Program-made: the position numbers and the translations under genes
DNA from: Escherichia coli
GTDB taxonomy: Bacteria; Pseudomonadota; Gammaproteobacteria; Enterobacterales; Enterobacteriaceae
DNA length: 64,000 nucleotides
Direction: 5' to 3' (one strand)
Assembly (NCBI RefSeq): GCF_017348835.2
Contig: NZ_CP072315.1
Shown here: one piece after another, positions 7,070-45,000 of the stretch
How positions within the stretch are numbered: position 1 is the stretch's first letter
Layout of the letters: each line of letters begins with the position of its first letter
The notes under the pieces: generated by a model
Databases searched by the model: none
Seen by the model: the letters and a program-made list of their open reading frames with translations, nothing else
Told to the model about the DNA's origin: nothing

Positions 7070-7831
7070 ATGCAAATCTCAACTGAAGTTCTGAACGTCT
7101 TATCTCGCTGCCGTGCTGAAGGGAACTTTCTTTTCCTGGCCGACCAGCTCGACCGCAGCATTTATGTTAAGACAAACAAAGTGCTGGAAGCTGCCGGTGG
7201 CAAATGGAACCGAAAAGAGCAGGCACATATTTTTACGGCGGATGCAGCTGAGCGTATCGAGCAAATCATTCTGACAGGTTCGGTCGACATCCCACGTGAT
7301 TTGTTCAATTTCTTCCCTACCCCTGAGAATTTAGTCACAGATATGGTTCTACGCGCTGAACCAGCTGCCGGGGAACGTGTTCTGGAGCCTGAGTTTGGTG
7401 ATGGCCGCATTCTGAAAGCCTTAAAACTGGCGGCTCCGGATGCATTGATTACCGGGATCGAATTGAACGATGAGCGATTCCTTGCAGTGAAGAACGATAG
7501 TGTCCTTAGCACAGGGGCCGAGCTGGTGCATACCGACTTTCTTGGGTACCAGCCCGATGAAACTTTTGATGTTATCGTTATGAATCCACCATTCCTTAAA
7601 CGCTCTGACGTTAAACATGTCATGCATGCCATCGCAATGCTCGCTAAGCGAGGTCGCTTACAGGCCATTCTGTCAGCTGGGGTATTGTTCCGGGAAGACA
7701 CACTGACAAAAGCGCTCAGGGAGCGAGTCAAACAACTTGGCGGACAAATTTCGCCTCTTCCGGATGATACATTTAGGGAGTCCGGAACAAAGGTCAAAAC
7801 AGCCCGCCTTGAAATTGATCTTCGCCGCTAA
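7070..7831 (+). CDS. orphan SAM-dependent N6-adenine methyltransferase (NPPF type)
   Basis: Motif I LEPEFGDGRIL and motif IV VIVMNPPF; start set at the ATG with GGAG RBS 5 nt upstream (track start 7007); no adjacent restriction endonuclease. Confidence 0.65.
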   Translation: MQISTEVLNVLSRCRAEGNFLFLADQLDRSIYVKTNKVLEAAGGKWNRKEQAHIFTADAAERIEQIILTGSVDIPRDLFNFFPTPENLVTDMVLRAEPAAGERVLEPEFGDGRILKALKLAAPDALITGIELNDERFLAVKNDSVLSTGAELVHTDFLGYQPDETFDVIVMNPPFLKRSDVKHVMHAIAMLAKRGRLQAILSAGVLFREDTLTKALRERVKQLGGQISPLPDDTFRESGTKVKTARLEIDLRR

Positions 7832-16479: not shown

Positions 16480-17340
16480 AATAAGTTATCACTGAATGTG
16501 TAAACAGATTGGTGAATAGTAAGCCCCAGCGAACTCTATGTCACTGGATGGATCATTGTGATGATCCATATCTGTGCATAAGTTCTACCTAAAAAAACGA
16601 CTCCACTCATTAAAACTTGGCAAAAACTCTTTGCATACAATGACCTGCAACTCTTATCAACAACGGATCAGATCAAGTTAAAAAGATCTAATGAAAAGTC
16701 ACTACTATTGTCGCTCTGATCACTACTGATGTCAAAAAACTCATTACCAACGTTATAATAATCACTACTAATGTCAAAATAATCACTACTGTTGTCACTG
16801 ATCACGTCTCAGGCCTTGTGCCGTCTGGCCTGGAGGCAGCGGGGATCTCTTTTGATCTATCAGGAACACTAAGGTACTAATTATTGGAACTACCTTGTGG
16901 AAAATGGGGATAAATAAATGCTTAGTTCTTATACAGGTCTCAACTTGCCTCCCTGATAAAAACTGTCGTCAAAGCTAAATCACAGCCACAGGCATTTTCG
17001 GTGGATAAATTTTTGAGAAATAGAAGCATACATGCAGACTCGTGTCGCAAGTAATTGAAAGTAATGATTTATTTAAATAATGCGAGTCACCTTACCTCAC
17101 AGTGGAAGTTTAAGTCTAACCTCACTACCATTGTCACTTAAAATCATTACCAACGTCGAAATAGTCTCTACCATTGTCTTTTAAGTCACTCCCGTTGTCA
17201 CTTATGTCGCTACTGTTGTCAGTGACAATGCTCCAGCCCAGTAACCATGCGGCCTACAGCGTACCGGGATCTTCTTTGTACTCTCTGGCACCTTTGGGAT
17301 CATTTATTGGATCTACATGAGGGATAAAATCTTTTGACGA
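16480..17340. other. putative origin of replication (oriV) for the rep gene at 15391-16479
   Basis: Two clusters of five ~21-bp direct iterons (TCACTACnnTTGTCA; 16690-16800 and 17100-17230), each followed by a GATC-rich segment; AT-rich. Confidence 0.5.
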
Positions 17341-17586: not shown

Positions 17587-20043
17587 TTATTTTAATTCTT
17601 CAATGTTAATCATGAACTCAGATCTGCCAGTAAGGCCGGATACAGCAGGGAAAATAGGAAAGCTACGGCTGTCCCCGAGCCCCAAATCCAGTTGAAGCTC
17701 TTTGCTTTCACCTGGCATCGCAGAAACGCCATTTACAGTCACGCCGAATGCAGCGTCCTTACGGACAGTAAGCACTGCGTCCTGAAGCCCTGTAGCGATT
17801 GAACCATCCTTTTTACGCAGCTGGCTGGCATACAGAACAGCCAGAGCAGTATTGTCAGATGTTTTGAGAGAAGCATTGACAGCTAAGGTTTTCAGATTCT
17901 CTAGCCTGACGAGATTGTTTGGAAGGTAGTTAAATTCGACTGAGCTTTCTTTAACGTTGTTCATCTCATCTTTGGCCTGAACTGTGAGAGTGTATGTTTC
18001 GCCTTCATTAAGAGACGGAAAGATCTTGGGATAATTAGGTGCATACAGGTTGTTTCCCAGATTCACCCAAGACAATTCCACCGCATCAGAAACAGGGCCA
18101 CCGCGAAGAGTCATACGGCTTAAGGATGGTTTAGTTAGAGCATCGGTGAGCTGTATACGGACGTTCTCCAGCCCATATACTGTTACGTTTTTGCTGATCG
18201 GTTTTCCTTCGTAGCTAATACTTACAGATGGTGCTGTATTATCAACGACAACTGTTTGATAAGGGAGGTTACCGGTATTGTTGAATGTATCTTGGGCATT
18301 AATCACCACGTTATAACTGCCTTCTGGTACCTCTTTCATGTTGAACTCATACGTGTAGTTCCCAGACGCCATATTTCTACCTGTTTGTTTGCCGGTTACG
18401 CTTATTTCTGCGTTGTTACGGTTTTTATCTGACAACCAAACTCGATTTACATAAACATGGTCGAAATATGAACCATCTCCAGGTTGATTCACGTAAACCT
18501 GGAGAATGTTGGTGGTTTCATTGTAATCAAATCCAGTGACGGAGGGACCCAGTGTATGCCAGGCTATATTCTCCCATATAGGGGCAAAGAAGGTTGCTTC
18601 GGTGGTTGACCTTACTTCATAGCCACTATGAAGATAACCGGTAGTGCCATTTATAATATCCTGGGGCAAAGAGACGGTACAGGTTGTTGAGCCAGCTGGA
18701 ATACTGCATGTTGCTCCGCCAGTGATTTTTTGATCATATGGCCTGGCCTGTACATTGAATCGGATATTAGTAAGTTTTATAGGCATATCAGATGCCTTGA
18801 ACAGGTTCCAGTTTACGCTGTTGAACCATGTTCCATCAGCCTTTTGTCGTTCTATGGGTGAACTTCCCCAAGCCGGACTCTTTACAGAGGCAGGATCCCA
18901 GTTGAGCCAGCTGGCATACTGACCAAGATCTCCTCCAGACCATTGATATGTATTCACAGGTCTATAGTAGTTTCCATCTAAGGCACCCTGTGGCAGCTTA
19001 ACTTCCACGTAGACATAGGTGGCATCTTCGGAAAGGACCTGTACTCCGCCATAGTTATTGGTAATGCTCATGCCACCATTTCGATATGGCTTCCAGTTAG
19101 TTCTTGGGATACGTATAACCAACTTGTAGGGGTTTTCCAGCACTGTAAGGCCTCGTTTAAACGGGACGTATCCCGAAGAAATGCCGGGTACAACACTGGT
19201 GCTTACACGTGAGTCATGAACTGCAAATGGCGTAAATTCTCCCATTTGATCGTCATATAAAAACCGCTGGGGAGGAATGTTAAGCGTATTTCCTGCCAGG
19301 TCCGTAACGATGAAATTGAAGGTGAATTCTTCATCAAGATCACTTGAGGGCATGCCAGCCTGGGTGTTCATATCTTTAATCCACGGATAGAACGCACGTT
19401 TATTGGCTGTGTCATAACTCAGGTTATTGTCGGAGACCACAGAACCATTACTTCGTTTAATGACAAGACGGATCTTGTCAATTCCACTAGCATCCTCAAT
19501 ACCGTCTGCAAATATAGAAAACTGGCCACTACCGCCTCGGCCCAACTCCCAAAGTGGCCCAGAAAGTACCATGTCGTAACCTGCGTTTTGACTCGGATAA
19601 ATACTCTTATAGCGTGGAGGAGTTGTATCAACGATGAAATGATAAGTAGATGTGCTCACTACAGTCTGGCGAATATCCAGAGTTTCATTGACTACAGTAA
19701 AGGTCCCTTCTCCGAGCGCCGGTAGAACCATATCCTTTCCATAGTATTCTGTTCCATCGGCAGCAACGATACGATCTGCAACGCTCGTTTTGGTCGAGAC
19801 GGAGGAATACATAACCTTTTTATCGCTGTCTCGTGTGACCGTCACTCGCTCGTACCGATCAAGACCCGATATCAAGTTCAGAGTCAAAACACCAGCGGGA
19901 TTAAGATATGTTTGTGTTGCAGGTTTGATATTCCGAACAGCCTTATTGGTATCTGTAAATGAGTAGCTAAATACCTGAGCATGTGCCGAAGATACAGTAG
20001 CAAGGGCAGTTGCAACCATGCAGCCAATTAGAGTTTTACGCAT
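17587..20043 (-). CDS. large secreted Ig-like/adhesin-like protein, ~800-aa paralog 3
   Basis: GGAG RBS; signal peptide MRKTLIGCMVATALATVSSAHA; ATCSIPAGSTTC and C-terminal GLENVRI..LRGGP..FNYLPNNLVRLENLKTLAV module shared with paralogs. Confidence 0.75.
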   Translation of the reverse strand: MRKTLIGCMVATALATVSSAHAQVFSYSFTDTNKAVRNIKPATQTYLNPAGVLTLNLISGLDRYERVTVTRDSDKKVMYSSVSTKTSVADRIVAADGTEYYGKDMVLPALGEGTFTVVNETLDIRQTVVSTSTYHFIVDTTPPRYKSIYPSQNAGYDMVLSGPLWELGRGGSGQFSIFADGIEDASGIDKIRLVIKRSNGSVVSDNNLSYDTANKRAFYPWIKDMNTQAGMPSSDLDEEFTFNFIVTDLAGNTLNIPPQRFLYDDQMGEFTPFAVHDSRVSTSVVPGISSGYVPFKRGLTVLENPYKLVIRIPRTNWKPYRNGGMSITNNYGGVQVLSEDATYVYVEVKLPQGALDGNYYRPVNTYQWSGGDLGQYASWLNWDPASVKSPAWGSSPIERQKADGTWFNSVNWNLFKASDMPIKLTNIRFNVQARPYDQKITGGATCSIPAGSTTCTVSLPQDIINGTTGYLHSGYEVRSTTEATFFAPIWENIAWHTLGPSVTGFDYNETTNILQVYVNQPGDGSYFDHVYVNRVWLSDKNRNNAEISVTGKQTGRNMASGNYTYEFNMKEVPEGSYNVVINAQDTFNNTGNLPYQTVVVDNTAPSVSISYEGKPISKNVTVYGLENVRIQLTDALTKPSLSRMTLRGGPVSDAVELSWVNLGNNLYAPNYPKIFPSLNEGETYTLTVQAKDEMNNVKESSVEFNYLPNNLVRLENLKTLAVNASLKTSDNTALAVLYASQLRKKDGSIATGLQDAVLTVRKDAAFGVTVNGVSAMPGESKELQLDLGLGDSRSFPIFPAVSGLTGRSEFMINIEELK

Positions 20044-21871: not shown

Positions 21872-22048
21872 TTAATAGAATTCTTCATAACCGGGGTTTT
21901 CAGTTGAGTTTGCGGACTCTTTACTTTGCGGTTTCTCACCCTCTAGTTGAGTATCCCTGACAGGCTTGGATTTACCCATGCTCCTCTGAAAGGTATCCAT
22001 AACAAACTCAATATCTTCTTCTGGCAGGCTGGTGGGTTGGTTGCTCAT
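21872..22048 (-). CDS. small acidic protein (58 aa), translationally coupled; not in ORF track
   Basis: ATG overlaps the stop of the 563-aa gene (ATGA); reads MSNQPTSLPEEDIEFVMDTFQRSMGK...; below the track length cutoff. Confidence 0.35.
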   Translation of the reverse strand: MSNQPTSLPEEDIEFVMDTFQRSMGKSKPVRDTQLEGEKPQSKESANSTENPGYEEFY

Positions 22049-23736
22049 AGGACTTCCTCTTGTTGAATACGTTCGGCGTACAGGATGCGAACCGAAACGG
22101 TCGTGTTTTCAAACTCGTTCTCAAAAACGTCCATCCATTCCGTCCGGAATTCTTCCCCCAAAAGGTTATCGAGCCCCTGAAGAGATAATGGAAGAACGGC
22201 TGCTAGAGATCCCCCGGCTGCGAGATGAGATGCAGCTGCCTGGAGATGCAGCCTGGCCCGGTTATCGGCAAAAGGTGGGTTCATCACGACATAATCAAAC
22301 TTCTTCTGTTGATTAGACTTAGACCATGTGAGGAAGTCAGCTTCTGTCGTATCGTATCCCTTAGCCCGGGAGATAAGGCAATTCAAAGTATCAAGCTCGA
22401 TGCCAGTAACGATCACACCGGCAGGGAATGATTTAAGCAAATCCGCATGGCCAATATTAGGCTCCAGGAGGGTATCCCCTTCCCCTGCACCAAGCAGGGA
22501 AGATACATATTCGCTGATTCGGCAAGATGAAGGGTAAAACTGATGCGATACAATATCAGGCATCTCCCCTATCTGGCCGATGTAACGAATAACCTCACAC
22601 GGATCATAGGAAAATGTCACATCGTATTTTGTTACTGTTGCCCCTAAGAACCGAAGGGTGTCAGCGGCAACACTCGAAGATTTGCGTTCGGCGAGAGACC
22701 CTAAAGATGTCCAGCAACTCCATTTATTGTCCCCGTCATTTTTAAACATCAGTTCAGAAAGCTGCATCCGGGTATCAAAGTCGATGCACTGCTTAAGTAC
22801 AGGGAATGCCTCCAAAGATTTCTTGCTATGAGCCATACGGTCGGCAGGTAATGCCAGCGGTACGATAGCTGATAAAATATTGTTAAGCCGCTCGGCGATA
22901 TCAGGGTGGACGTCAATATGCATTGATCCATTTTTGTAAACCCTGAAACGAATACTGTTGCCATCGATGCAGATCCATTTTCTGAACCCCTCATGTTCGA
23001 CCAACGCCTCAACCAATGATTTGGTGTTATGGATCGCCTTCACCTGTTCGCCACGGAAGAATGCGCATATAACGCGGAGCTCGCTCAGCGGTGAAATGCC
23101 AGACTCTTTAAAATCCACCCTTAATTTCTGCCAGGGGTATTTAGACGGCTCGCAAACTCCGGTAGTGATCATGCGGGTGGAGAACCCAAAAGCTTTGTTT
23201 GTCTTGTGACTGCGGCTCAGAGACTGGAAGACGTCGTAAACCCTTTCTTTAATAAATTGATTGCGGTCATTAAGCAAAGCAACGACTGTGCCCACTACAG
23301 CGTCAGCTGTGAAATCAGGGATCACCTGAGGCGGCATAATATAACGGTCGGCCGTAAACTGCTTATCCCATTCGTTACGTTTGGCATCCGACATGATAGG
23401 CAAAACATCAGTGAGTGCCATAACGCATTTCCAGTATTCTGATCTCAGAGCGTTTTCTGCGAACAAAGCATCCGCTTCTGAGATGCTGTGGTTGTAGCCT
23501 GAGAGATAAGAATAAAGTTTCTGGTGATTGTGGGTTTTGAACTGGACAGCCATGAGTTTCAACAAGCAGAGTTCATCATTATAGGACTCAACAAGATCCG
23601 CGATAATGCCGAGCTCTTTGCGCATATCTGGAAGAAATGTTTCAGGAGAGCTAACCACCAGGCTATGAGAGGTTGTTAAAGCCAGTACGCTGTGACCTGC
23701 ATTATCGGGTTTAGCTTCAGAATCAAGAGATGACAT
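22045..23736 (-). CDS. two-domain protein: unknown N-terminal domain (~380 aa) fused to NPPF-type adenine methyltransferase domain
   Basis: C-terminal LEPNIGHADLL ... FDYVVMNPPF ... GGSLAAVLP is paralogous to the standalone methyltransferase at 7070-7831. Confidence 0.6.
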   Translation of the reverse strand: MSSLDSEAKPDNAGHSVLALTTSHSLVVSSPETFLPDMRKELGIIADLVESYNDELCLLKLMAVQFKTHNHQKLYSYLSGYNHSISEADALFAENALRSEYWKCVMALTDVLPIMSDAKRNEWDKQFTADRYIMPPQVIPDFTADAVVGTVVALLNDRNQFIKERVYDVFQSLSRSHKTNKAFGFSTRMITTGVCEPSKYPWQKLRVDFKESGISPLSELRVICAFFRGEQVKAIHNTKSLVEALVEHEGFRKWICIDGNSIRFRVYKNGSMHIDVHPDIAERLNNILSAIVPLALPADRMAHSKKSLEAFPVLKQCIDFDTRMQLSELMFKNDGDNKWSCWTSLGSLAERKSSSVAADTLRFLGATVTKYDVTFSYDPCEVIRYIGQIGEMPDIVSHQFYPSSCRISEYVSSLLGAGEGDTLLEPNIGHADLLKSFPAGVIVTGIELDTLNCLISRAKGYDTTEADFLTWSKSNQQKKFDYVVMNPPFADNRARLHLQAAASHLAAGGSLAAVLPLSLQGLDNLLGEEFRTEWMDVFENEFENTTVSVRILYAERIQQEEVL

Positions 23737-23983
23737 TTTACCGGTCCTTTAGAAAAAACTTTTACCAGGATAGCAACGTCGCTCAGTAACCTAATAGGTT
23801 CAGTGACACGAAAAAGTTTTTTATGTCTCTGAATAAAACTTAAAGATGTCAACTCATAGAAAGAAGCAAAAAAAAAGCCCCGCATAAACGGGGCAAGAAC
23901 GATACATGGAGGTTTAAAAAAGGCGGGCAAAAAGCCTGAATCCTTAATGACTCTGACAAAACCAGCACTTTGCCAAAAGTAAA

Positions 23984-25147
23984 TTATTCTGCGTCCGGCT
24001 GTGGGTCAGTATCCTGATCGGTCTCTTCCCCTGCCTTCTTAGCATTTTTTTTACGTGGGTATTTTGGCTTCTCACCATTAAGTTTTGCCTGACGATTCTC
24101 CGCACGGCGAAGCTGCTTGTTCTCTGATTCTGTGATCTCTTTTGAAAGATTTCTCAACATCTCCAGAGTACTGCGGTTCAACGTAATGTTGATTTCTTCG
24201 TCAGCACTTGAATCTGTCAGCTCCGGCAATTCAATATCCCCCAGTTTCTGTAATAAGCTGGTGGTGATGAGTTTGACGCCTTCTACGGCTTTTGTGGCAA
24301 TAACCGGCGGAATCCGTGCTGGCTTGAAGTCTGAAGGTCTGACTCGTACCTGACCATGTTGGGTTTTTTTCACCGTGATGCCATTCGCATCGGCCTGCTC
24401 AAGTTCTGCGATCATCTTCTTGATACGTGAAATTGCTTCTGTTTCGCCGAGCTCATCGATCAGTGAAAGCACGTTAACATACGAAATAGCGTCAGCATGA
24501 ATCCATTTCTTGATAACAACAGAACAGGTTGTCAGGCGGATAAGAGAACTGATGGTCGTCGGGCTTTTATTTTCACGTTGAGCAATTCGTTCGAGTGACC
24601 AGCCAGCAAGAGAATGTAGGCGACGATAGGACTCGCCAAGCGCAACAGGAGAAAGCGCAAGACCACGGTTACCATCAATGGTCGCGAGCTCACAGCCAAT
24701 TTCATCTTCTTTAATCTCAACGCAAAGGATTGTGATGTCATGATCTTCATCACATGCCATCATTGCGGCTTTTAAACGGCAGTGCCCCTGGCGAACAAAA
24801 GGTACCCCATCAATGACACGTACTCGGATAGGGTCTACATAGTCACCTCGAATGTAGGCATTCTTGATGTTGTAGATGTGTTCTTCAACCTCAGGGAGCT
24901 TATAGTAATCGTCACCCATTCCCATTTCGCGGGAGTTGAAGCCTGGCGTGACCTGAATTACTGAAGGGTGGATAGCCCATGCTTTCTGGTCACTTACTTC
25001 AGTACAAAGTTCAGGGTTTGCATCACGGAACTGTTTAAGCCCAGTGACGTAACGGCCTGTGCCAGTAACTACTGAAAAGGCAACATGGGCCGTTTTAAAG
25101 ACCTTGTCATTAGCTTGCTGTGTAGGTTCTGTCAGTAAAACACTCAT
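23984..25147 (-). CDS. ParB/Srx-like nuclease-domain protein (387 aa)
   Basis: N-terminal FNSRE ... VRQGHCRLKAA resembles the ParB N-terminal box; paralogous to the ORF at 28358. Confidence 0.55.
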   Translation of the reverse strand: MSVLLTEPTQQANDKVFKTAHVAFSVVTGTGRYVTGLKQFRDANPELCTEVSDQKAWAIHPSVIQVTPGFNSREMGMGDDYYKLPEVEEHIYNIKNAYIRGDYVDPIRVRVIDGVPFVRQGHCRLKAAMMACDEDHDITILCVEIKEDEIGCELATIDGNRGLALSPVALGESYRRLHSLAGWSLERIAQRENKSPTTISSLIRLTTCSVVIKKWIHADAISYVNVLSLIDELGETEAISRIKKMIAELEQADANGITVKKTQHGQVRVRPSDFKPARIPPVIATKAVEGVKLITTSLLQKLGDIELPELTDSSADEEINITLNRSTLEMLRNLSKEITESENKQLRRAENRQAKLNGEKPKYPRKKNAKKAGEETDQDTDPQPDAE

Positions 25148-25516
25148 AGGGGCTCCGTTACATTTTTCTGCTTACTTTCTGCGTAGCGGGGATACTACCG
25201 AAAAAAAAATTCATAATTTTTCGCAAAAAAGGTACTTTTTGAGCCTATTCTGATTTTTTACAAAAAAAGGTGGCTCCCCATTACTTGTGATGGCATAAAA
25301 ATCGCTTCATAAACAAATACATAAATCCAAAACATAAAGTTCAGGTATAAGTGAGGAAAAATCTTATAAATCCGAAATGCTGAAAGTCAAAACTGTGCGT
25401 CTTAAACAACTTTTTTTTGCTCCCTAAGTTATTAGTTAAAGCCCGTGGTTAGGTACGATACCAGCACCTAAATTTCTCTCTCAGGTATAGACACTTTGAC
25501 TCGACATCTCAGACAC

Positions 25517-26329
25517 ATGCCGATAATCAAATGGGCTGGTGGAAAAACGAAACTGATGCCTTTCATCAGCCATCACTACCCACACGATCATAGTTGCCGG
25601 TGGGTAGAACCCTTTATAGGCGGTGGTGCCGTTTTTCTGAACATGTTTGCACAAAATGCATTGCTTGCAGATAGCAATCCAGACTTGATCAACCTATACA
25701 GGACTATTCAAAGACAGAAAACTAACTTTATAAATCAGGTCCAAAACTTGGCGGATAAAACCTTTGTCGAAAAGGACTACTATGAGATGAGGGACCGTTT
25801 CAACAAAACCTGTATTTCTGGTCAATCGCTTCAAAGAGCGGCTTTGTTTTACTCCCTGAATCGCCTGGGCTATAACGGTATGTGCCGCTATAACTCAGAA
25901 AGAATCTATTCAGTGCCGTGGGGGAAACATACAGAACTGAAGCTTGACCTCAATAAAATAGACTACCTTTCATTTCGTCTTTCAGGTATTGAACTGATCA
26001 CCGCTGGTTTTGAGGAGACTCTGGCCGCAACCGGTGAAGGAGATCAGATTTACTGTGATCCGCCATATGACAAAACAAGCAAAACTAGTTTTGTCAGTTA
26101 CGATGGTAAACCGTTCAGCCAAAGCGACCACGTGCTGTTAGCAAATATGCTCGTTGACGCTCACAGAAAAGGCGCTGCTGTTGCGATATCAAATAGCCTG
26201 ACATCATTCACTTTGGGCCTCGATGAAGAGCGTGGATTCGTCATACACAGACTCAGCGCTTACCGATCCGTAGGAAGTAAGCCGAATACACGGAAAACGG
26301 AAACAGAAATACTGGCCGTGCTGAAATAG
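25517..26329 (+). CDS. dam: Dam-family DNA adenine methyltransferase (GATC type predicted)
   Basis: KWAGGK, EPFIGGGAVF, NRLGYNGMCRYN and DPPY motifs closely parallel E. coli Dam; ATG at 25517 (track uses TTG at 25496). Confidence 0.8.
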   Translation: MPIIKWAGGKTKLMPFISHHYPHDHSCRWVEPFIGGGAVFLNMFAQNALLADSNPDLINLYRTIQRQKTNFINQVQNLADKTFVEKDYYEMRDRFNKTCISGQSLQRAALFYSLNRLGYNGMCRYNSERIYSVPWGKHTELKLDLNKIDYLSFRLSGIELITAGFEETLAATGEGDQIYCDPPYDKTSKTSFVSYDGKPFSQSDHVLLANMLVDAHRKGAAVAISNSLTSFTLGLDEERGFVIHRLSAYRSVGSKPNTRKTETEILAVLK

Positions 26330-26337
26330 AGTAAATT

Positions 26338-27195
26338 CTAATCAACTAGGCTAATCCATTCCTCAAAAGTTAATACCTCAGGGTAAGTTCGTTGAACATA
26401 AGGTATAAACTGAAGCTCTTCTATTCTCCGGTCGCCCCTCTTTCCTTCGCAAATAAATGAAATGAGTCCTTGCTGAGAAAGGCCAGTAAGGACGCTCATA
26501 AGTCTTATATTTAGACTTTTAAGCTGTAAGTCGTTATTAATGTCCTCCACTTTATGAGAGCTCTGGCCTGAACGTTTAAGATACTCGTAAACCATGAAAT
26601 TCGAATTTCGTCGTTTTAACAATTTTTCGGTTATGCATTCCTGAATGAAGTCGCCAAGAGCATCTAAAAGCGGACTGAGAACTACCGGGAAAGTTAATGT
26701 GTAACTTTGAGAAGTTTTAGACAAAGTGAATGAGTTTAGAAAGCTAAAGTTTAGTCTCTTTTTTGAATATGGAACATAAGCGACAAGAGTAGTCGACATA
26801 ACAGTAAGTAAAGCTTCAAGATGGTTCACTGTTATTAAAGTGGTTTTATCTGTATTTCTAAGATTATGGAAATCAATAAACGCTACTCTTGAACGGCTAA
26901 GCCAATCTTGTACTTTAATGTCGATAGAAAATTGCGAGATATGATTTGAACATTCATTTTGGGTGATAGGGCATGCAGACGAAAGATGGTTATGGATTAT
27001 CATGCATAGCACAAAAAAAGGAAAACGGCAGGCTGTGGGGCATTGAAAACCGGTTAAAGAAAGCTTAGACGTTTCATATGCGCTTACCGGAAAAGTAACT
27101 TTTCTTAACGTTGGCTTTGACGATGTTCTTGCATTTTTACAAATGAAACCGAGACCCAGATCATTGTGCATTTTAAAGTCCATCTCCATCATCAC
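26338..27195 (-). CDS. hypothetical protein (285 aa)
   Basis: Complete ORF convergent with dam; no motif recognised. Confidence 0.45.
   Translation of the reverse strand: MMMEMDFKMHNDLGLGFICKNARTSSKPTLRKVTFPVSAYETSKLSLTGFQCPTACRFPFFVLCMIIHNHLSSACPITQNECSNHISQFSIDIKVQDWLSRSRVAFIDFHNLRNTDKTTLITVNHLEALLTVMSTTLVAYVPYSKKRLNFSFLNSFTLSKTSQSYTLTFPVVLSPLLDALGDFIQECITEKLLKRRNSNFMVYEYLKRSGQSSHKVEDINNDLQLKSLNIRLMSVLTGLSQQGLISFICEGKRGDRRIEELQFIPYVQRTYPEVLTFEEWISLVD
27091..27103. promoter_or_regulatory. palindrome site AAAAGTAACTTTT (dispersed family)
   Basis: Exact 13-bp palindrome with GG/C flanks, near the 5' end of the gene at 26338-27195. Confidence 0.35.
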
Positions 27196-27426: not shown

Positions 27427-28143
27427 TTAACTGTCTTGGAGTTTATTTAACTTAAAAACTGTTATTGCAGCATAATTTTTCGAATCAAATTCATAGAATT
27501 TTCTGACTTTTCCAGTCAAATGATAACGTTCACCCAATAAAATGTGATCCTGTTTATCGGCCGTTAAAGCGATCCCGTCATTTCTAACTTTACCAGTAAA
27601 TGTAAAAAAATAACTCCCTTTACTTTTTGCGTACGCGGCCCTGACTTCAGTAAATGTTAGTTCAATGCTTATGACCTGGCCGATATTGTAGCTATGTTTT
27701 AAAATTTCTTGTTCATTTTCCGGAGTTTCAGACAACATCACATCAAAAGTTGTAAAGAAACAATCCAGCTGGCGTTCTGTCAAGAAACGGTTATTGTCTA
27801 ATTGCGCCAATATACTATTAGAAAACTTAGTGTTAGCCTTTTTTGCTTTCTCAATAAGGACGTGGTTTCTGGATTTCCATGCTTCGAGTGTTGGGTTAAC
27901 ACGCAGTTCCGGAATGTTATCGAGAAAGGTAATTGGCTCTAGTGCCACTAATTTTTCAATAATGGGTCCAACTGTTTGTACCCCATGACACTTTTCACAT
28001 AAATCAGCCCCTTTGTGGCCTGTGCCCGCACATTCGTTACATTCTCTTTCGATAGGTGCATAATAATTTCCATCTCCGTTAAGTGATACATTCACTGAGG
28101 CTGGTACCATATGACCATCAAGAGTAAAGAAAAGAGATTTCAT
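27427..28143 (-). CDS. zinc-ribbon protein (238 aa), function unknown
   Basis: CNECAGTGHKGADLCEKCHG (CxxCxGxG-type) motif; last gene of operon with the ParB-like gene. Confidence 0.5.
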   Translation of the reverse strand: MKSLFFTLDGHMVPASVNVSLNGDGNYYAPIERECNECAGTGHKGADLCEKCHGVQTVGPIIEKLVALEPITFLDNIPELRVNPTLEAWKSRNHVLIEKAKKANTKFSNSILAQLDNNRFLTERQLDCFFTTFDVMLSETPENEQEILKHSYNIGQVISIELTFTEVRAAYAKSKGSYFFTFTGKVRNDGIALTADKQDHILLGERYHLTGKVRKFYEFDSKNYAAITVFKLNKLQDS

Positions 28144-28340
28144 TTTCGAAACACCTCCAAACGTGCCTCTACGATTGCTACAGCTTCTTTCACAGTTTTT
28201 TCATAGTGGTCATGCCCTTCAGGAAATTGATCAAAACGTTTACCGTGTTCTAACTCTTCCATGTTGCGTTTAAGGACTTCATGAGTTAGAAGCAAATCAC
28301 TATAATTATCGATAAGAGTCAGCTTTATAGGTTTAATCAC
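28140..28340 (-). CDS. small protein (66 aa)
   Basis: Stop overlaps the downstream gene start (operon position). Confidence 0.4.
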   Translation of the reverse strand: MIKPIKLTLIDNYSDLLLTHEVLKRNMEELEHGKRFDQFPEGHDHYEKTVKEAVAIVEARLEVFRK

Positions 28341-28357: not shown

Positions 28358-29413
28358 TTAATATTCCTTAAGGAGATCTCGAATTTCCAGAAGCTCTTCT
28401 AATTTTGGTTTAGAAACAATGATTGCTGTATTTTCGTCGTTAAGTAAAGACAATAAAATATTTAGCTTTTCATCATTCAAGATTATTTGAACACCATCAT
28501 TGGAAAATATTACATTATTACTATTAACATTTTTGAACAAGTGTGCACTATCTCTACCAAATTTTAGTTCTGTTTGAGTATTCGTTATAGATTCCGTATG
28601 TGTACTTTCCACAAGCTCAAGAAATTCAGATTTTAGCCGTTCTGTTTTCTTATGCGAGAGGCGCTTAATACCCAAAGTCTTACGAGTGACTGCCGAATTT
28701 TTCTTTTCTGGTCCGCCTTTATTTAAGGTGTCTGGTCCTGCTCCAGCTGCATTGTGTTCAGGTATGCCTACAATTTTGCTCGTTGTAGTCTCAATATTCT
28801 TAACGCCAGGTAAGAAACCTTCTATATGTTTTAAAACCATTTTGTGATCGTTGGAATATTTTAACATTATTTCAATGGCGAGCGTTTTTTTGATTAGATT
28901 TAGGCTAATCAAACGTTGAAGCTCTAATGGCATATCAAGGATTTTTAGCATATTACGAATTGCGGTAGTTGATCGTTGATATCGCATTGCTAGTTCTTCA
29001 ACCGAATACCCGAGACTAACAGCATGAGCTAATGCATGAGCTTGCCCAACCGGATTTAGCCCATTGCTTCTGTTACCATCGAGGTTCTCAAGGTATTCTT
29101 CAATTTCGTTTTTATAATCGATTAGGATAACAGATAATTTTGGAATATTAGCACCTTCAGAAATTGCTAATTTTAAGCCATGAAAACGAGTATGACCTTG
29201 ACGAACTAAATATTTACCTTTTCTTTTTACGACCTTGATCATATCAACCTGCCTTCCTTCCTTAAAGGCTTGTTTGATTGACACAATCATCGACTTGACA
29301 GGTTCTTGTTCGTAACACAAATCTCCGATTACCGCCTCTCGGGGATTAAATCCCTTTTCAATTTCAACTAGATTAGTATCCACTTCAATGACTGTATGTT
29401 TGCTGTTGTTCAT
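28358..29413 (-). CDS. ParB/Srx-like nuclease-domain protein (351 aa)
   Basis: FNPRE ... YLVRQGHTRFHGLKLA ParB-box-like motif; paralog of the ORF at 23984. Confidence 0.55.
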   Translation of the reverse strand: MNNSKHTVIEVDTNLVEIEKGFNPREAVIGDLCYEQEPVKSMIVSIKQAFKEGRQVDMIKVVKRKGKYLVRQGHTRFHGLKLAISEGANIPKLSVILIDYKNEIEEYLENLDGNRSNGLNPVGQAHALAHAVSLGYSVEELAMRYQRSTTAIRNMLKILDMPLELQRLISLNLIKKTLAIEIMLKYSNDHKMVLKHIEGFLPGVKNIETTTSKIVGIPEHNAAGAGPDTLNKGGPEKKNSAVTRKTLGIKRLSHKKTERLKSEFLELVESTHTESITNTQTELKFGRDSAHLFKNVNSNNVIFSNDGVQIILNDEKLNILLSLLNDENTAIIVSKPKLEELLEIRDLLKEY

Positions 29414-29419: not shown

Positions 29420-29889
29420 CTCCTGTTTACTACATGATACATGAACCTCAAATTTGCCAAATAGGGCTGATACATCTAAAAGGTAAACTCAAAAAATTTG
29501 CTTAATAAAATTAAAATAAAAACTGTCTTGAATAAAACAATGATAGTAGACCCTCGTTCATTTCCGTTTGCGATCTGTAGATATTGTTAAAGGAGCGCTA
29601 TTCCTTGTTTTATATGGACTTATCATTGTTTTCAACAGGATAGATCAATTCTTTAGATCACTAAAGATCAATAGAGTTCAAGTAAAGATCACGGCATCTT
29701 TAACTCATTGATTATAGTGACTTTATGAAAGGATCCGGCATTCGGATGCATGCGAAAAGCATTTGAATGAATAAGGAAGGCATTTACTGGAATGCTTATG
29801 GCATTTAGGTTAATGCGTAAAAAGCATTTGCAAGAATATGTTATAAACAGTTTGCCAAATGAAAATCTTATCACCGACGAGTTAAGTTA
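29420..29889. other. putative oriV / rep promoter region of second replicon
   Basis: Four GATC sites within about 50 bp (29651-29700) and four ~21-bp direct repeats of type GCATTTnnnTGAATG (29735-29860) upstream of rep. Confidence 0.5.
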
Positions 29890-30765
29890 ATGATTAAAAA
29901 CAACGAGTTAATCCATCCTTTTGACGTAACCAGTAATGAATCAGGTAAGACTTATCAACTGACGCCTAACTCGTCCAAGTCGGTTCAGCCCGTGGCCCTG
30001 TTGAGATTGAGTGTATTTACCCCTGTCGGCACAAAAGAAAACCGCGACCGAAACTTTGAAGTTGATGCCTCTGATGAGCTTTCGTGTATGGAAATTGCAA
30101 GATCGGAGGGTTATGACGACATCAAGATAACTGGTGTCAAACTATCTATGTCTACCGACTTTAAGTGCTGGCTCGGGATCATCATGGCTTTCAGTAAATA
30201 TGGTTTTACTTCCGAGAAGATTACCCTGACTTTTAACGAGTTTGCGAAGATGTGTGGTATCAGTTCAACAAACATCAACAAACGAACTCGTGCGCGCTTT
30301 AAAGAGTCATTAATGAACCTTGCATCGGTAGTGCTTGCCTTCTCAGACTCTCGGAGTGGTCGGTTCACAGTAACGCATCTGGTGCAGAAGGCTATGATTG
30401 ATCCAAAAAGCGATACTGTTGAGTTGGTTGGGGATCCTTCTATGTGGGAACTGTATCGTTACGACCATAAGACATTGTTAAGCCTTCAGGTTCTATACAT
30501 TTTGGCTAAAAAAGAAGCTGCGCAATCTCTCTATATTTATTTTGAAGCAATGCCAGCTGGTACGTTGTTCGTTAATATGAAACGGTTGAGGGAAAGGTTG
30601 CTTCTTACAACCCCTATTCGTACGCAAAACCAGATAATTCGTAAAGCAATGCGGGAACTTGAATCTATCGGATATCTCGATTATCAAGAAGTTAAGAAAG
30701 GTCGCGACATACAATTTCAGATCTTCAAAAGAAGCCCTAAGCTGGCCCTCGCCAAACAAGGTTGA
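29890..30765 (+). CDS. iteron-type plasmid replication initiator, second paralog (RepFIB/RepHI-like)
   Basis: 291-aa protein paralogous to the Rep at 15391; iterons upstream and downstream. Confidence 0.7.
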   Translation: MIKNNELIHPFDVTSNESGKTYQLTPNSSKSVQPVALLRLSVFTPVGTKENRDRNFEVDASDELSCMEIARSEGYDDIKITGVKLSMSTDFKCWLGIIMAFSKYGFTSEKITLTFNEFAKMCGISSTNINKRTRARFKESLMNLASVVLAFSDSRSGRFTVTHLVQKAMIDPKSDTVELVGDPSMWELYRYDHKTLLSLQVLYILAKKEAAQSLYIYFEAMPAGTLFVNMKRLRERLLLTTPIRTQNQIIRKAMRELESIGYLDYQEVKKGRDIQFQIFKRSPKLALAKQG

Positions 30766-41525: not shown

Positions 41526-41553
41526 AGTAAATATCTTCAAGCAAAAACAATTA

Positions 41554-41585
41554 AACCAGATGTCTCATAAGAATCTGGTTTTTTA
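41554..41585 (+). terminator. rho-independent terminator after trhC
   Basis: Hairpin AACCAGAT-11nt-ATCTGGTT followed by TTTTTT. Confidence 0.6.
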
Positions 41586-44900: not shown

Positions 44901-45000
44901 CTCCTGAAGTTGGGTTTCAGTTCTGGGCTAGGTTGCTAACTCTGCTCCCATAATTCGTAGTGGGCCTACTCAAGAGATTAACACCTCATATCTTTAGACT
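41950..45000. repeat. tandem array of about 13 diverged direct repeats of ~235-257 bp (at least three unit subtypes, higher-order duplication)
   Basis: Anchor CAGATTTAACCCCCTTAATCGCCAAACTGGG recurs at about 41955, 42416, 42664, 42921, 43171, 43411, 43660, 44121, 44371, 44620, 44868; every unit contains TCGCCA and ATTTAAC. Confidence 0.8.

What the first reader, a model, noticed from the sequence alone, without database searches (positions are those of the whole stretch)
22045..26329. Cluster of orphan methyltransferases and ParB-like genes: likely anti-restriction or anti-defence island
The window encodes three adenine-methyltransferase domains with no cognate nuclease nearby: a Dam-like DPPY enzyme (25517-26329) and two paralogous NPPF-type domains, one standalone (7070-7831) and one fused to a ~380-aa N-terminal domain (22045-23736). 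Two ParB/Srx-like paralogs and zinc-ribbon proteins sit among them. Such combinations are typical of plasmid regions that protect incoming DNA from host restriction. The methyltransferase specificities and the role of the fused N-terminal domain are unknown.
Basis: partly seen in the sequence, partly recalled or inferred. Interest (0 to 1): 0.55.

Follow-up and report, generated by a model that had tools for sequence, protein, structure and literature searches.

The report
IncHI plasmid methyltransferase and ParB-like backbone module
This is a conserved, already-annotated block of IncHI2 resistance plasmids that encodes three DNA adenine methyltransferases and two ParB-like DNA-binding proteins; it probably pre-methylates the plasmid and is tied to the transfer regulon, but it is not a classic leading-region anti-defence island and its function is untested.

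Summary
The window is IncHI2 (R478-like) plasmid backbone. It encodes a Dam-family enzyme (25517-26329), a DUF4942 + gamma-class NPPF methyltransferase (22045-23736), a small paralogous NPPF methyltransferase (7070-7831) and two paralogous ParB-like proteins (23984-25147, 28358-29413).

The region is at least 95% identical in 1,117 plasmid records. The gene order is kept in IncHI1 R27 (R0037-R0044) and in two more distant plasmid lineages.

The anti-restriction reading is only partly supported.
- In R478 the block lies 72-80 kb from oriT, so it is not the leading region.
- No known anti-restriction gene or ssDNA-promoter hairpin was found.
- A published SMRT methylome of a strain carrying all three genes shows no extra m6A motif.
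- Deleting the R27 homologues did not reduce plasmid stability.

Published R27 arrays show R0037-R0042 induced 3- to 19-fold when transfer is derepressed. R0043, the DUF4942 enzyme, is barely induced.

GATC clusters sit upstream of both replication genes. A 13-bp palindrome, AAAAGTNACTTTT, marks this block and the transfer promoters.

The DUF4942 region has no structural relative outside its own family.

Ordinary in kind, uncharacterised in function.

The parts
28358..29413 (-). ParB-like protein 2 (351 aa; homologue of R27 R0037). First gene of a tightly packed three-gene unit transcribed divergently from the RepB-type rep gene.
   Evidence: HTH_ParB E 1.4e-5; phrog_1033 ParB-like E 1.9e-25; TIGR00180 34 bits, below cutoff; paralogue of ParB1; R0037 induced 4.2-fold in the R27 htdA mutant.
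28140..28340 (-). 66-aa protein (R0038 homologue). 17-nt gap after ParB2 and 4-nt overlap with the zinc-finger gene.
   Evidence: ORF; conserved position in R27, L006 and L015; R0038 induced 7-fold in the htdA mutant.
27427..28143 (-). DnaJ-type CxxCxGxG zinc-finger protein (238 aa; R0039 homologue).
   Evidence: Weak NCBIfam matches to the anti-TRAP and DnaJ zinc-finger regions; RefSeq name 'zinc finger-like domain-containing protein'; R0039 induced 5-fold.
26338..27195 (-). Protein of unknown family (277-285 aa; R0040 homologue), convergent with Dam across an 8-bp gap. The C-terminus looks like a winged helix by eye.
   Evidence: No hit in NCBIfam, PHROGs, PADLOC, Pfam or the PDB; only 14 clusters found, the named members in enterobacterial hosts and syntenic homologues in the IncHI-like loci L006 and L015; R0040 is the most strongly induced gene of the block (18.6-fold).
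25517..26329 (+). Dam-family DNA N6-adenine methyltransferase (270 aa, DPPY; R0041 homologue). The only gene of the block on the + strand.
   Evidence: TIGR00571 221 bits against a cutoff of 115; 135 bits to E. coli Dam and 125 bits to DpnM. The residues I recall as the GATC-contacting ones of E. coli Dam (K9, Y119, N120, R124, P134) are conserved in the alignment, and L122 is replaced by M.
25227..25239 (.). Copy of the 13-bp palindrome (AAAAGTACCTTTT, one mismatch) in the Dam/ParB1 divergent promoter region, about 80 bp upstream of ParB1.
   Evidence: It is the only block conserved between IncHI1 and IncHI2 in this intergenic region, and the motif is also present in L006 and L015.
23984..25147 (-). 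ParB-like protein 1 (387 aa; homologue of R27 R0042 'partition protein').
   Evidence: HTH_ParB E 1.7e-4; phrog_1033 E 3.3e-28; weak PDB matches to Spo0J, ParB and Noc covering box II and the HTH; R0042 is very highly transcribed and induced at 25 C and in the htdA mutant.
23877..23894 (-). Intrinsic-terminator-like hairpin (GCCCCGTTTATGCGGGGC followed by T9) between ParB1 and the DUF4942 methyltransferase gene.
   Evidence: Consistent with R27 signals of 20,561 for R0042 against 326 for R0043.
22045..23736 (-). DUF4942 + gamma-class NPPF N6-adenine methyltransferase (563 aa; R0043 homologue). Layout: disordered residues 1-35, DUF4942 region about 36-300, small alpha/beta subdomain 315-393, methyltransferase core 395-560 with no C-terminal target-recognition domain.
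21872..22048 (-). 58-aa protein (R0044 homologue); its start overlaps the methyltransferase stop by 4 nt.
   Evidence: A small ORF follows the methyltransferase in R27, L015 and R478.
7070..7831 (+). Stand-alone small NPPF gamma-class methyltransferase (253 aa), paralogue of the C-terminal 215 aa of the 563-aa protein.
   Evidence: PDB sequence hits at E below 0.01 are only M.TaqI (1.2e-6) and the DNA adenine methyltransferase 7vru. Its domain also occurs inside giant phage and plasmid proteins (phrog_9133, 15406, 11358). At least 99% identical in 1,046 plasmids.
29572..29735 (.). Cluster of six GATC sites directly upstream of the RepB/TrfA-type rep gene (29890-30765), in the intergenic region shared with ParB2.
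16551..16857 (.). Cluster of nine GATC sites directly upstream of repHI2 (15391-16479, - strand).
   Evidence: The same arrangement occurs at both R27 replicons.
27091..27103 (.). Perfect copy of the palindrome AAAAGTAACTTTT inside the 5' coding part (RKVTFP) of the R0040 homologue.

Best explanation
This is the IncHI-family backbone block that R27 numbers R0037-R0044. It lies between the two IncHI replicons and next to the Tra2 mating-pair genes.

It is not one operon and not one machine. It has several transcription units:
- ParB2, a 66-aa protein and the zinc-finger protein;
- the R0040 homologue;
- Dam;
- ParB1, with a terminator-like hairpin downstream;
- the DUF4942 methyltransferase with a 58-aa protein.

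Most likely mechanism (inferred, not shown):
- The methyltransferases are stand-alone DNA N6-adenine enzymes that modify the plasmid's own DNA in the cell that carries it. Dam acts at GATC. The two gamma-class NPPF enzymes lack a conventional target-recognition domain. They probably act with low or unusual specificity, on single-stranded or replicating DNA, or only when induced.
- Dam, both ParB-likes, the zinc-finger protein and the R0040 homologue are switched on together with the transfer genes in the donor.
- The transferred strand would therefore leave already methylated. It would become a hemimethylated duplex, which is resistant to restriction, in the new host.
- This is protection by prior modification in the donor, not zygotic induction from a leading region.
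- Dam additionally keeps the GATC clusters in front of both rep genes methylated.
- The ParB-like proteins are DNA-binding proteins that serve regulation or DNA handling during transfer. They are not anti-restriction factors.
For: - Domain assignments.
- The same gene order holds in IncHI1, IncHI2 and two more distant lineages, always next to the trhA-trhC operon.
- R27 arrays (PMC7366339 supplement), htdA mutant against wild type at 25 C: R0037 4.2x, R0038 7x, R0039 5x, R0040 18.6x, R0041 (Dam) 7.8x, R0042 3.35x, R0045 8.35x, but R0043 only 1.5x.
- A second R27 pair, partition protein R0153 and cytosine methylase R0154, is induced 11- to 16-fold.
- The palindrome AAAAGTNACTTTT occurs at about 18 sites in the window against 0.29 expected. 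It lies upstream of the trhA operon, htdT, the htdA region, ParB1 and the Ig-like gene. It is conserved at orthologous places in R27 and occurs around oriT in R478.
- A terminator-like hairpin lies between ParB1 and the methyltransferase gene.
- The DUF4942 enzyme family is carried by phages, phage-plasmids and plasmids, including a prophage early operon just upstream of the replication initiator.
- No defence or restriction partner was detected.
- The only two GATC clusters in the window sit upstream of the two rep genes. The same holds in R27.
- R27 deletions covering the block did not significantly reduce plasmid stability, so it is accessory rather than a maintenance function.
Against: - No methylation activity or specificity has been shown for any of the three proteins.
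- The SMRT methylome of S. Senftenberg ATCC 43845, whose IncHI2 plasmid carries all three genes, reported only GATC plus five motifs that the authors assigned to MTase ORFs whose locus-tag numbers lie below those of the plasmid. The two NPPF enzymes therefore leave no detectable sequence-specific mark in growing cells.
- The usual hosts already have Dam, so a GATC enzyme adds little protection there.
- The DUF4942 enzyme itself is not part of the transfer regulon in R27 (1.5-fold).
- The best structural match of the NPPF core is an rRNA m6A enzyme, METTL5, so an RNA target is not excluded.
- The unknown protein convergent with Dam could be a nuclease.
- The R27 expression data come from IncHI1 and are transferred to IncHI2 by homology and by the shared palindrome only.
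Confidence: 0.45

Rival explanations
1. Dam is mainly a replication or regulatory methyltransferase for the plasmid's own replicons. It keeps the GATC clusters upstream of repHI2 and of the RepB-type rep gene methylated, so that initiation or rep expression is timed as at oriC and P1 oriR. Restriction protection would be incidental.
For: - The only two places in 64 kb with at least 5 GATC per 200 bp lie immediately upstream of the two rep genes (16551-16857 and 29572-29735).
- The same holds for both R27 replicons, making four of four.
- The dam gene lies between the two replicons.
- GATC is not avoided in the window: 217 observed against 240 expected.
Against: - R27 lacking R0037-R0042, which includes dam, was as stable as wild type in E. 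coli MG1655. Host Dam could compensate, so this is weak evidence.
- About one such cluster per window is expected by chance (0.92 in shuffles). The argument therefore rests on their position and conservation.
- In R27, dam is induced with the transfer genes rather than with rep.
Confidence: 0.3
2. The ParB-like proteins are the functional core. They would be KorB-like plasmid-wide regulators or DNA clamps that bind the 13-bp palindrome AAAAGTNACTTTT and coordinate transfer, replication and accessory genes. Alternatively they would deliver plasmid DNA to the transfer apparatus. On this reading the methyltransferases are merely neighbours.
For: - Both have a ParB-type HTH and a partly conserved box II, QGH(C/T)R against GERR.
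- The palindrome occurs at 10 perfect and about 18 near-perfect sites in 64 kb against 0.29 expected. It is often intergenic, and one copy sits upstream of ParB1 itself in four lineages.
- The R27 homologue R0042 is among the most strongly transcribed plasmid genes.
- ParB1 homologues occur beside Tra2 and an Ig-like gene in Klebsiella IncHI1B plasmids that lack both methyltransferases.
- From my own knowledge, KorB of RK2 binds a 13-bp palindrome at 12 sites.
- HerB of the F plasmid shows that orphan ParB-likes can be regulators (PMC13370423).
Against: - Nothing links the palindrome to these proteins rather than to TrhR, TrhY or HtdA.
- The palindrome does not vary between lineages, so co-variation could not be tested.
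- Box II and box III are degenerate, so CTP binding is uncertain.
Confidence: 0.25
3. Dam and the convergent 277-285-aa protein form a Type II restriction-modification or addiction pair specific for GATC. On this reading Dam is not an orphan.
For: - The two genes converge tail to tail with an 8-bp gap, and this is conserved in R27, L006 and L015.
- The partner has no detectable family, as is common for restriction enzymes.
Against: - No clear PD-(D/E)xK, HNH or GIY-YIG motif is evident in the alignment, and the C-terminus looks like a winged-helix DNA-binding domain.
- In R27 the putative nuclease is induced more strongly than the methylase (18.6x against 7.8x).
- Insertion sequences sit between the two genes in many IncHI2 plasmids without apparent harm.
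- R27 Del1, which removes both genes, was obtained readily.
Confidence: 0.07
4. The two NPPF enzymes do not protect double-stranded plasmid DNA in a sequence-specific way. They would methylate RNA (METTL5- or Erm-like). Or they would act only on single-stranded DNA during transfer or replication, as M.EcoGIX does, with little sequence specificity.
For: - No extra m6A motif appears in a strain carrying both genes.
- Neither protein has a conventional target-recognition domain after motif IV.
- The same domain is embedded in giant phage and plasmid proteins.
- Single-strand-specific plasmid methyltransferases exist (PMC7736820).
Against: - By sequence the best solved relatives are DNA enzymes. 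For the small paralogue only M.TaqI and 7vru score below E 0.01. For the family profile the best hits are 7vru, M.TaqI and then Erm.
- Low expression in growing cells could equally explain the missing motif. The R27 signal for R0043 is 217-394 units.
Confidence: 0.2

Closest known systems
Orphan Dam-family methyltransferases of phages and plasmids (E. coli Dam, DpnM, T4 Dam)
   Same: Alpha-class motif order and DPPY. It passes the TIGR00571 cutoff. The GATC-contacting residues I recall for E. coli Dam are conserved. No recognisable nuclease partner is present.
   Different: It is plasmid-borne, sits between two replicons whose control regions carry GATC clusters, and in R27 is induced with the transfer genes. 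Specificity is untested. An unknown protein lies convergent to it.
Leading-region anti-defence islands of conjugative plasmids (Samuel et al., Nature 2024, PMC11541004)
   Same: Orphan methyltransferases and ParB-like genes on a conjugative plasmid, mostly in one orientation, with a plausible role in surviving entry into a new host.
   Different: It is 72-80 kb from oriT in R478. It has no ArdA, KlcA, PsiB or SSB gene and no Frpo-type hairpin. In R27 expression is under the donor transfer regulon (HtdA) rather than known to be zygotic.
M.EcoGIX / M.BceJIII plasmid single-strand-specific methyltransferases (PMC7736820)
   Same: Plasmid-borne adenine methyltransferases linked to conjugation and to protection of incoming DNA. 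A missing or unusual motif in ordinary methylomes would fit.
   Different: Here the methyltransferases are alpha-class and gamma-class enzymes encoded apart from the ParB-like genes, with a terminator-like hairpin between ParB1 and the DUF4942 gene. From my own recollection, M.EcoGIX-type enzymes are single ParB-domain fusions of another methyltransferase class; I did not check this here. M.EcoGIX lies in a leading region; this block does not.
M.TaqI-type gamma-class N6-adenine DNA methyltransferases and the methyltransferase modules of giant 'polyvalent' phage and plasmid proteins
   Different: No C-terminal target-recognition domain. Instead there is an N-terminal region of about 395 aa (DUF4942 plus a small subdomain) with no structural relative outside its own family.
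KorB of IncP plasmids and HerB (YfjB) of F: orphan ParB-family regulators
   Same: ParB-type N-terminal domain plus HTH without an adjacent ParA. High expression. A 13-bp palindrome is spread over the plasmid, as KorB operators are.
   Different: Binding to the palindrome and CTP binding are untested. Similarity to solved ParB proteins is marginal (E about 0.03). The C-terminal halves are unrelated to known ParB dimerisation domains by sequence.

Membership tests
Dam family (TIGR00571) DNA N6-adenine methyltransferase | Whole-protein score above the curated family cutoff | tested here: met
   221.4 bits against a cutoff of 114.85.
Dam family (TIGR00571) DNA N6-adenine methyltransferase | Catalytic DPPY motif and the GATC-contacting residues of E. 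coli Dam | tested here: met
   DPPY in the translation. K9, Y119, N120, R124 and P134 are conserved and L122 is M in the alignment to 2g1p. The list of contact residues is from my own knowledge of the E. coli Dam structure.
Dam family (TIGR00571) DNA N6-adenine methyltransferase | Methylation of GATC | not testable with these tools
   GATC is 99.7% methylated in a strain carrying the plasmid, but the host dam gene explains that.
Gamma-class N6-adenine DNA methyltransferase (M.TaqI-like) | Motif order X, then I, then IV, with (N/D)PP(F/Y) | tested here: met
   HQFYPTP, then LEPNIGHADLL, then VVMNPPF in the 563-aa protein; FFPTP, then LEPEFGDG, then MNPPF in the 253-aa protein.
Gamma-class N6-adenine DNA methyltransferase (M.TaqI-like) | Rossmann-type fold closest to N6-adenine enzymes | tested here: met
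Gamma-class N6-adenine DNA methyltransferase (M.TaqI-like) | C-terminal target-recognition domain | tested here: not met
   Both proteins end about 50-70 residues after motif IV.
Gamma-class N6-adenine DNA methyltransferase (M.TaqI-like) | DNA substrate and a defined recognition sequence | tested here: inconclusive
   No additional motif in the published methylome of a carrier strain.
ParB/Spo0J/KorB family | ParB-type helix-turn-helix domain | tested here: met
   PF17762 E 1.7e-4 for ParB1 and 1.4e-5 for ParB2; phrog_1033 E 1e-25 to 1e-28.
ParB/Spo0J/KorB family | N-terminal CTP-binding motifs (box II GERRxRA, box III ENxQR) | tested here: inconclusive
   Box II is QGHCRLKA in ParB1 and QGHTRFHG in ParB2. 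Box III is IDGNR and ENLDGNR. TIGR00180 scores 32-34 bits against a cutoff of 58.
ParB/Spo0J/KorB family | Adjacent ParA partner and a centromere (partition function) | tested here: not met
   No ParA is adjacent. The plasmid's ParA/ParB and ParM modules lie at 45362-47616 and 50722-52409. R27 Del1, which removes both ParB-likes, did not significantly reduce stability.
Leading-region anti-defence island | Position next to oriT on the first-transferred side | tested here: not met
   In R478 oriT and mobI lie at about 190.4-191.2 kb and the cluster at 266.9-274.3 kb. The window contains no relaxase gene. The direction of transfer is not known.
Leading-region anti-defence island | Known anti-defence genes (ArdA, KlcA/ArdB, ArdC, PsiB, SSB, anti-CRISPR) | tested here: not met
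   None among the ten proteins scanned against NCBIfam, PHROGs and PADLOC. No dedicated anti-defence library was available.
Leading-region anti-defence island | Single-strand promoters (Frpo-type hairpins) upstream of the genes | tested here: inconclusive
   ssDNA folding z-scores of +0.9, -2.6, -1.0 and -2.2 for the four intergenic regions, with no long promoter hairpin. No Rfam hit in the window. Only one strand was folded.
ParB-methyltransferase fusion (M.EcoGIX type) | ParB domain and methyltransferase in one polypeptide | tested here: not met
   The genes are separate, with a terminator-like hairpin between them. Longer homologues of the DUF4942 enzyme show no ParB match in their N-terminal extensions.
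Type II restriction-modification system | Cognate restriction endonuclease next to the methyltransferase | tested here: inconclusive
   No recognisable nuclease. The unknown proteins at 26338-27195 (convergent with Dam) and 6225-6989 (upstream of the small methyltransferase) have no detectable family.
Methylation-linked defence systems in PADLOC (MADS, BREX-like) | Methyltransferase accompanied by the other system components | tested here: not met
   Only weak matches of the methyltransferase core to mad2 (E 8.7e-7 and 3.7e-14). No other component among the neighbours.

The most novel reading that the evidence does not exclude
Two linked ideas remain open.

1. The two orphan ParB-like proteins could be the IncHI counterpart of KorB. 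They would be nucleotide-switched DNA clamps that recognise the plasmid-wide 13-bp palindrome AAAAGTNACTTTT and tie together the transfer operons, both replicons and the methyltransferase genes.

2. The DUF4942 region could be a new kind of substrate-recognition module. It would direct a gamma-class adenine methyltransferase that lacks a target-recognition domain to single-stranded or replicating DNA, which would explain why no motif appears in ordinary methylomes.
Probability: 0.12. Interest if true: 0.6.

Novelty: new member of a known kind. Interest (0 to 1): 0.33.

Why it matters
IncHI2 plasmids carry mcr-1, ESBL and carbapenemase genes through E. coli, Salmonella and Enterobacter. How they establish in restriction-proficient hosts is not known.

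If this block pre-methylates the plasmid in donors that are primed for transfer, it would show a route to restriction evasion that does not depend on the leading region. It would also offer a target for limiting spread.

The DUF4942 methyltransferases form a large family carried by mobile elements (864 clusters at 50% identity with E below 1e-30). No experimental data exist for them, and the N-terminal fold has no structural relative outside the family itself.

As it stands, the finding is a correct reading of already-annotated genes. The functional hypothesis is generic and untested.

Tried and rejected
- **Rfam scan of the whole window:** no hit.
- **PADLOC scan:** only generic methyltransferase models matched, so this is not a defence system.
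- **ParB domain fused to longer DUF4942 homologues (P0143, P0109, P0043):** none found.
- **Conserved partner gene of the DUF4942 enzyme outside IncHI plasmids:** the neighbours are a phage replication initiator, unknown PHROGs and a 584-aa protein without matches. None is ParB-like.
- **Fold of the N-terminal region:**
  - A separate AlphaFold model was built (pLDDT 81.7, pTM 0.76).
  - AFDB50 returned only members of the same family.
- **The R0040 homologue as a restriction enzyme:** Pfam, a profile search of the PDB and a homologue search all gave nothing. Neither shown nor excluded.
- **Frpo-like single-strand promoters:** folding of four intergenic regions showed nothing convincing.
- **Literature:**
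  - 'DUF4942' appears in four papers, none functional.
  - No paper in the library connects TrhR, TrhY or HtdA with a palindrome.
  - No methylome study assigns a motif to these genes.
- **Direction of transfer from oriT:** could not be determined.
- **Degenerate motif I as a sign of inactivity:** I considered whether LEPNIGHADLL, with A where most homologues have G, marks an inactive enzyme. I rejected this because the active M.TaqI has LEPACAHGPFL at the same place.

Full report
**What the window is.**
The 6 kb around the finding is at least 95% identical to 1,117 plasmid records from Escherichia, Salmonella, Enterobacter and Klebsiella. Most are conjugative plasmids of 190-370 kb. Annotated examples (pD90-1; R478) identify it as IncHI2 backbone.

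The window map, left to right, is as follows.
- Ig-like protein genes, a small methyltransferase gene and an IS91-family insertion.
- repHI2 at 15391-16479.
- A third Ig-like gene.
- The block of interest.
- A RepB/TrfA-type rep gene at 29890-30765.
- The Tra2 mating-pair operon (trhL, E, K, B, V, C).
- The ParA/ParB and ParM partition modules, htdA and the RSP gene.

**Check of the observation.**
- Dam (25517-26329, +) passes the curated Dam-family model at 221 bits against a cutoff of 115. It has DPPY. It aligns over its full length with E. coli Dam (135 bits) and DpnM (125 bits).
- In that alignment K9, Y119, N120, R124 and P134 are conserved and L122 is replaced by M. I recall these as the GATC-contacting residues of E. 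coli Dam, so GATC specificity is likely. This is inferred.
- The 563-aa protein (22045-23736, -) has Pfam DUF4942 at residues 96-290 (E 1.7e-21) and a C-terminal methyltransferase core with VVMNPPF.
- The 253-aa protein (7070-7831, +) has MNPPF. It is paralogous to residues 348-515 of the larger protein (27% identity, E 5e-12).
- The two ParB-like proteins are paralogues (30% identity, E 4e-22).
- They carry the ParB HTH domain. They align weakly with solved ParB, Spo0J and Noc proteins across box II and the HTH (E about 0.03).
- A DnaJ-type zinc-finger protein lies at 27427-28143.

It concerns conserved genes, not chance ORFs.

**What kind of methyltransferases the NPPF proteins are.**
- The motif order is FYPTP, then LEPxxGxG-like, then NPPF. 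That is the gamma class.
- By sequence, the small paralogue's only solved relatives below E 0.01 are M.TaqI (1.2e-6) and a DNA adenine methyltransferase, 7vru.
- The family profile of the large protein hits 7vru, M.TaqI and then Erm at about 1e-4.
- All of these are N6-adenine enzymes. Most act on DNA and some on rRNA.
- Neither protein has the C-terminal target-recognition domain of M.TaqI-type enzymes.
- PHROG scans show the same core inside giant phage and plasmid proteins of 1,259-3,925 aa.

**The N-terminal region.**
- A separate model of residues 30-398, built on 27 diverse homologues, is confident (pLDDT 81.7, pTM 0.76).
- In AFDB50 it matches only members of its own family.
- The family is large. 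A profile search of 1.84 billion representatives found 864 clusters below E 1e-30. At least 150 of them have the full-length architecture of 500-600 aa.
- Members occur in several kinds of mobile element:
  - IncHI1 plasmids, at 70% identity;
  - SSU5-like phage-plasmids of about 110 kb, at 30% identity;
  - a lambdoid prophage, directly between cII and the replication initiator;
  - an element carrying a type IV CRISPR system;
  - SRL- and CP4-type genomic islands.
- No conserved partner gene appears outside IncHI plasmids.
- The role of DUF4942 stays unknown. Because the enzyme lacks a conventional recognition domain, substrate recognition is the most economical guess.

**The block is a conserved IncHI module.**
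The same order of genes is found in R27 as R0037-R0045, between RepHI1A and RepHI1B. It is also found in two metagenomic plasmids whose DUF4942 enzymes are only 54% and 47% identical. In every case it lies next to the trhA-trhC operon. The order is:
- ParB2;
- a small ORF;
- the zinc-finger protein;
- an unknown protein of about 275 aa;
- Dam, on the opposite strand;
- ParB1;
- the DUF4942 methyltransferase;
- a small ORF;
- an Ig-like protein.

The parts are separable, however.
- Klebsiella IncHI1B/FIB plasmids keep a ParB1 homologue and the Ig-like gene beside Tra2 but lack both methyltransferases.
- The small NPPF enzyme is essentially confined to IncHI2.
- A strong terminator-like hairpin (23877-23894) separates ParB1 from the DUF4942 gene.
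- IncC plasmids, which also have a MOBH relaxase, carry a 30%-identical ParB-like gene in one string with a site-specific DNA methyltransferase. The association of ParB-like and methyltransferase genes therefore recurs loosely in this plasmid group.

**Position relative to oriT.**
In R478 the Tra1 region, with mobI, the MobH relaxase and the oriT-containing intergenic region, lies at about 190-195 kb. The block lies at 266.9-274.3 kb of a 274.8-kb circle. It is therefore 72-80 kb from oriT in one direction and about 190 kb in the other. The window itself has no relaxase gene. This does not meet the positional definition of a leading region (PMC11541004). I could not determine the direction of transfer.

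**Published experiments on the R27 homologues.**
- Microarrays (PMC7366339) show R0042 (ParB1) as one of the most strongly transcribed plasmid genes. It is 2.7-fold higher at the permissive 25 C than at 37 C.
- In the derepressed htdA mutant at 25 C the fold changes were: R0037 4.2, R0038 7.0, R0039 5.0, R0040 18.6, R0041 (Dam) 7.8, R0042 3.35 and R0045 (Ig-like) 8.35. R0043, the DUF4942 enzyme, changed only 1.5-fold.
- A second R27 pair, partition protein R0153 and cytosine methylase R0154, rose 11- to 16-fold.
- The authors list R0042 and R0153 among genes induced under all conditions that promote conjugation.
- In a deletion scan of R27 (PMC4853401), Del1 (40,355-46,955) removes R0037-R0042 and the start of R0043. 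Del2 removes the remainder of R0043 together with R0044 and R0045.
- Both deletions were obtained, and only deletion 16 significantly reduced stability. The block is therefore not needed for maintenance in E. coli MG1655.
- Transfer into restricting recipients was not tested.

**A published methylome.**
S. Senftenberg ATCC 43845 carries an IncHI2 plasmid with all three methyltransferase genes. SMRT sequencing reported GATC plus five other m6A motifs. The authors assigned all of them to MTase ORFs whose locus-tag numbers lie below those of the plasmid.

The two NPPF enzymes therefore leave no detectable sequence-specific mark in growing cells. Possible reasons are:
- low expression;
- low specificity;
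- action on single-stranded DNA only;
- a substrate other than DNA.

**Sequence features found here.**
- *GATC clusters.* Only two places in the window have at least 5 GATC per 200 bp.
  - One has nine sites at 16551-16857, just upstream of repHI2.
  - The other has six sites at 29572-29735, just upstream of the RepB-type rep gene and shared with the ParB2 promoter region.
  - R27 has the same arrangement at both of its replicons.
  - About one such cluster per window is expected by chance, so the weight lies in the position and the four-of-four conservation.
  - This ties Dam methylation to replicon control.
- *Palindrome.* The 13-bp palindrome AAAAGTNACTTTT occurs at 10 perfect and about 18 near-perfect sites in the window, against 0.29 expected.
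  - Sites lie upstream of the trhA operon, before htdT, in the htdA region, in the divergent region before the third Ig-like gene, about 80 bp upstream of ParB1, and inside the conserved 5' coding part of the R0040 homologue.
  - The motif recurs at orthologous places in R27, around oriT and Tra1 in R478, and in the two distant lineages.
  - Upstream of ParB1 it is the only block conserved between IncHI1 and IncHI2.
  - Together with the R27 arrays, this makes it likely that the IncHI2 block also belongs to the transfer regulon.
  - Which protein binds the motif is unknown. I found no description of it in the searchable literature.
- *Single-strand promoters.* ssDNA folding of four intergenic regions gave no Frpo-like promoter hairpin.

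**Interpretation.**
The block is better described as a transfer-associated DNA-modification and DNA-binding module of the IncHI backbone than as a leading-region anti-defence island.

The most likely working model is inferred. Dam, and possibly the NPPF enzymes, modify the plasmid in the host. Dam, both ParB-likes, the zinc-finger protein and the R0040 homologue are raised when the donor becomes transfer-proficient. The strand that leaves is then already methylated and yields a hemimethylated, restriction-resistant duplex in the recipient. Dam also services the GATC clusters of both replicons. The ParB-like proteins more probably act in regulation or DNA handling. Precedents are KorB, which I cite from my own knowledge, and HerB (YfjB) of F (PMC13370423).

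Confidence in this model is moderate (0.45), for two reasons.
- No activity has been measured.
- The methylome result and the weak regulation of R0043 both count against a simple protective role for the NPPF enzymes.

**Rivals.**
- Dam as a replication or regulatory enzyme (0.30). This can hold together with the main model.
- The ParB-likes as KorB-like regulators of the palindrome (0.25). This can also hold together with the main model.
- The NPPF enzymes acting on RNA, or only on single-stranded DNA (0.20).
- Dam plus the convergent unknown protein as a restriction-modification pair (0.07).

**Novelty and interest.**
- The exact sequence is in more than a thousand public records with the same annotations.
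- The R27 homologues have been listed as adenine methylase, restriction methylase and partition protein in the R27 gene tables.
- Suggesting that plasmid orphan methyltransferases counter restriction is a standard idea.
- Less ordinary points are:
  - the large, unstudied DUF4942 family, whose N-terminal region has no structural relative outside the family;
  - membership of the block in the transfer regulon;
  - the plasmid-wide palindrome;
  - the GATC clusters at both replicons.
- I rate it a new (uncharacterised) member of a known kind, with interest 0.33.

Noticed in passing
window 595, 4764, 9584, 11808, 20199, 20264, 25227, 27091, 30875, 31660, 34713, 34963, 37022, 48439, 53479, 53673, 57566, 61113 (13-bp sites): The palindrome AAAAGTNACTTTT is hugely over-represented: 10 perfect and about 18 near-perfect sites against 0.29 expected. 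Many sites lie in promoter regions of transfer operons and of the block. It is conserved in R27, R478 (including the oriT region) and two distant lineages. It is probably the operator of a plasmid-wide regulator. I found no description of it in the searchable literature.
   Followed up: partly
window 16551-16857 and 29572-29735; R27 locus L013 15401-15710 and 30241-30630: GATC clusters (nine and six sites) lie immediately upstream of both replication initiator genes. They are conserved at both R27 replicons. This suggests Dam- and SeqA-type control of IncHI replication.
   Followed up: partly
window 12611-13810: An IS91-family transposase gene (399 aa, local GC 0.53) is inserted between the second Ig-like gene and repHI2. 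It is absent from R478 and pD90-1 at this place.
   Followed up: partly
window 26329-26338 (the junction between the 3' ends of Dam and the R0040 homologue): Many otherwise identical IncHI2 plasmids match the 6-kb query in two pieces, with an insertion sequence in between (IS2, IS1203, IS903B, ISApl1, ISVsa5, IS91, ISEcp1 with CTX-M). In pSSE-ATCC-43845 an IS903B sits exactly between Dam and the R0040 homologue. This may be an insertion hotspot.
   Followed up: no
window 3274-5691 (-), 9285-11705 (+), 17587-20043 (-): Three paralogous Ig-like (DUF4165/Big_3) proteins of about 805-818 aa surround the replicons and the block. The R27 counterpart of the third (R0045) is induced 8-fold in the htdA mutant. 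Related Ig-like proteins are reported to be needed for IncHI conjugation.
   Followed up: no
R27 locus L013 13882, 13925, 13968: Three one-mismatch copies of the palindrome, spaced exactly 43 bp apart, lie downstream of the RepHI1A gene. The arrangement resembles iterons.
   Followed up: no
R478 (NC_005211) 212-250 kb, locus L003 1-25000 and L005 37000-49000; overlaps window 1-5000: To the right of the relaxase operon lies a long run of small same-strand genes. It includes a Hok toxin, DUF957, DUF3085, an HNH protein, a 794-aa PAPS-reductase-family protein and another site-specific DNA methyltransferase. It looks more like a leading-region or anti-defence stretch than the block under study.
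   Followed up: no
window 6225-6989 (+): A 254-aa protein with no match in NCBIfam, PHROGs or PADLOC lies 80 nt upstream of, and co-oriented with, the small NPPF methyltransferase. A possible partner, not examined further.
   Followed up: no
IncC plasmid NZ_CP029118.1, locus L018 6950-10167: IncC plasmids carry a ParB-like gene 30% identical to ParB1 in one gene string with a 415-aa site-specific DNA methyltransferase. A further N-6 DNA methylase lies next to the ParA/KorB partition genes. Pairing of ParB-like and methyltransferase genes thus recurs in plasmids with MOBH relaxases.
   Followed up: no
window 2369-2839 (-): A second small protein (156 aa) with a DnaJ-type zinc-finger match, next to a RelE/ParE toxin gene annotated in pD90-1.
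   Followed up: no
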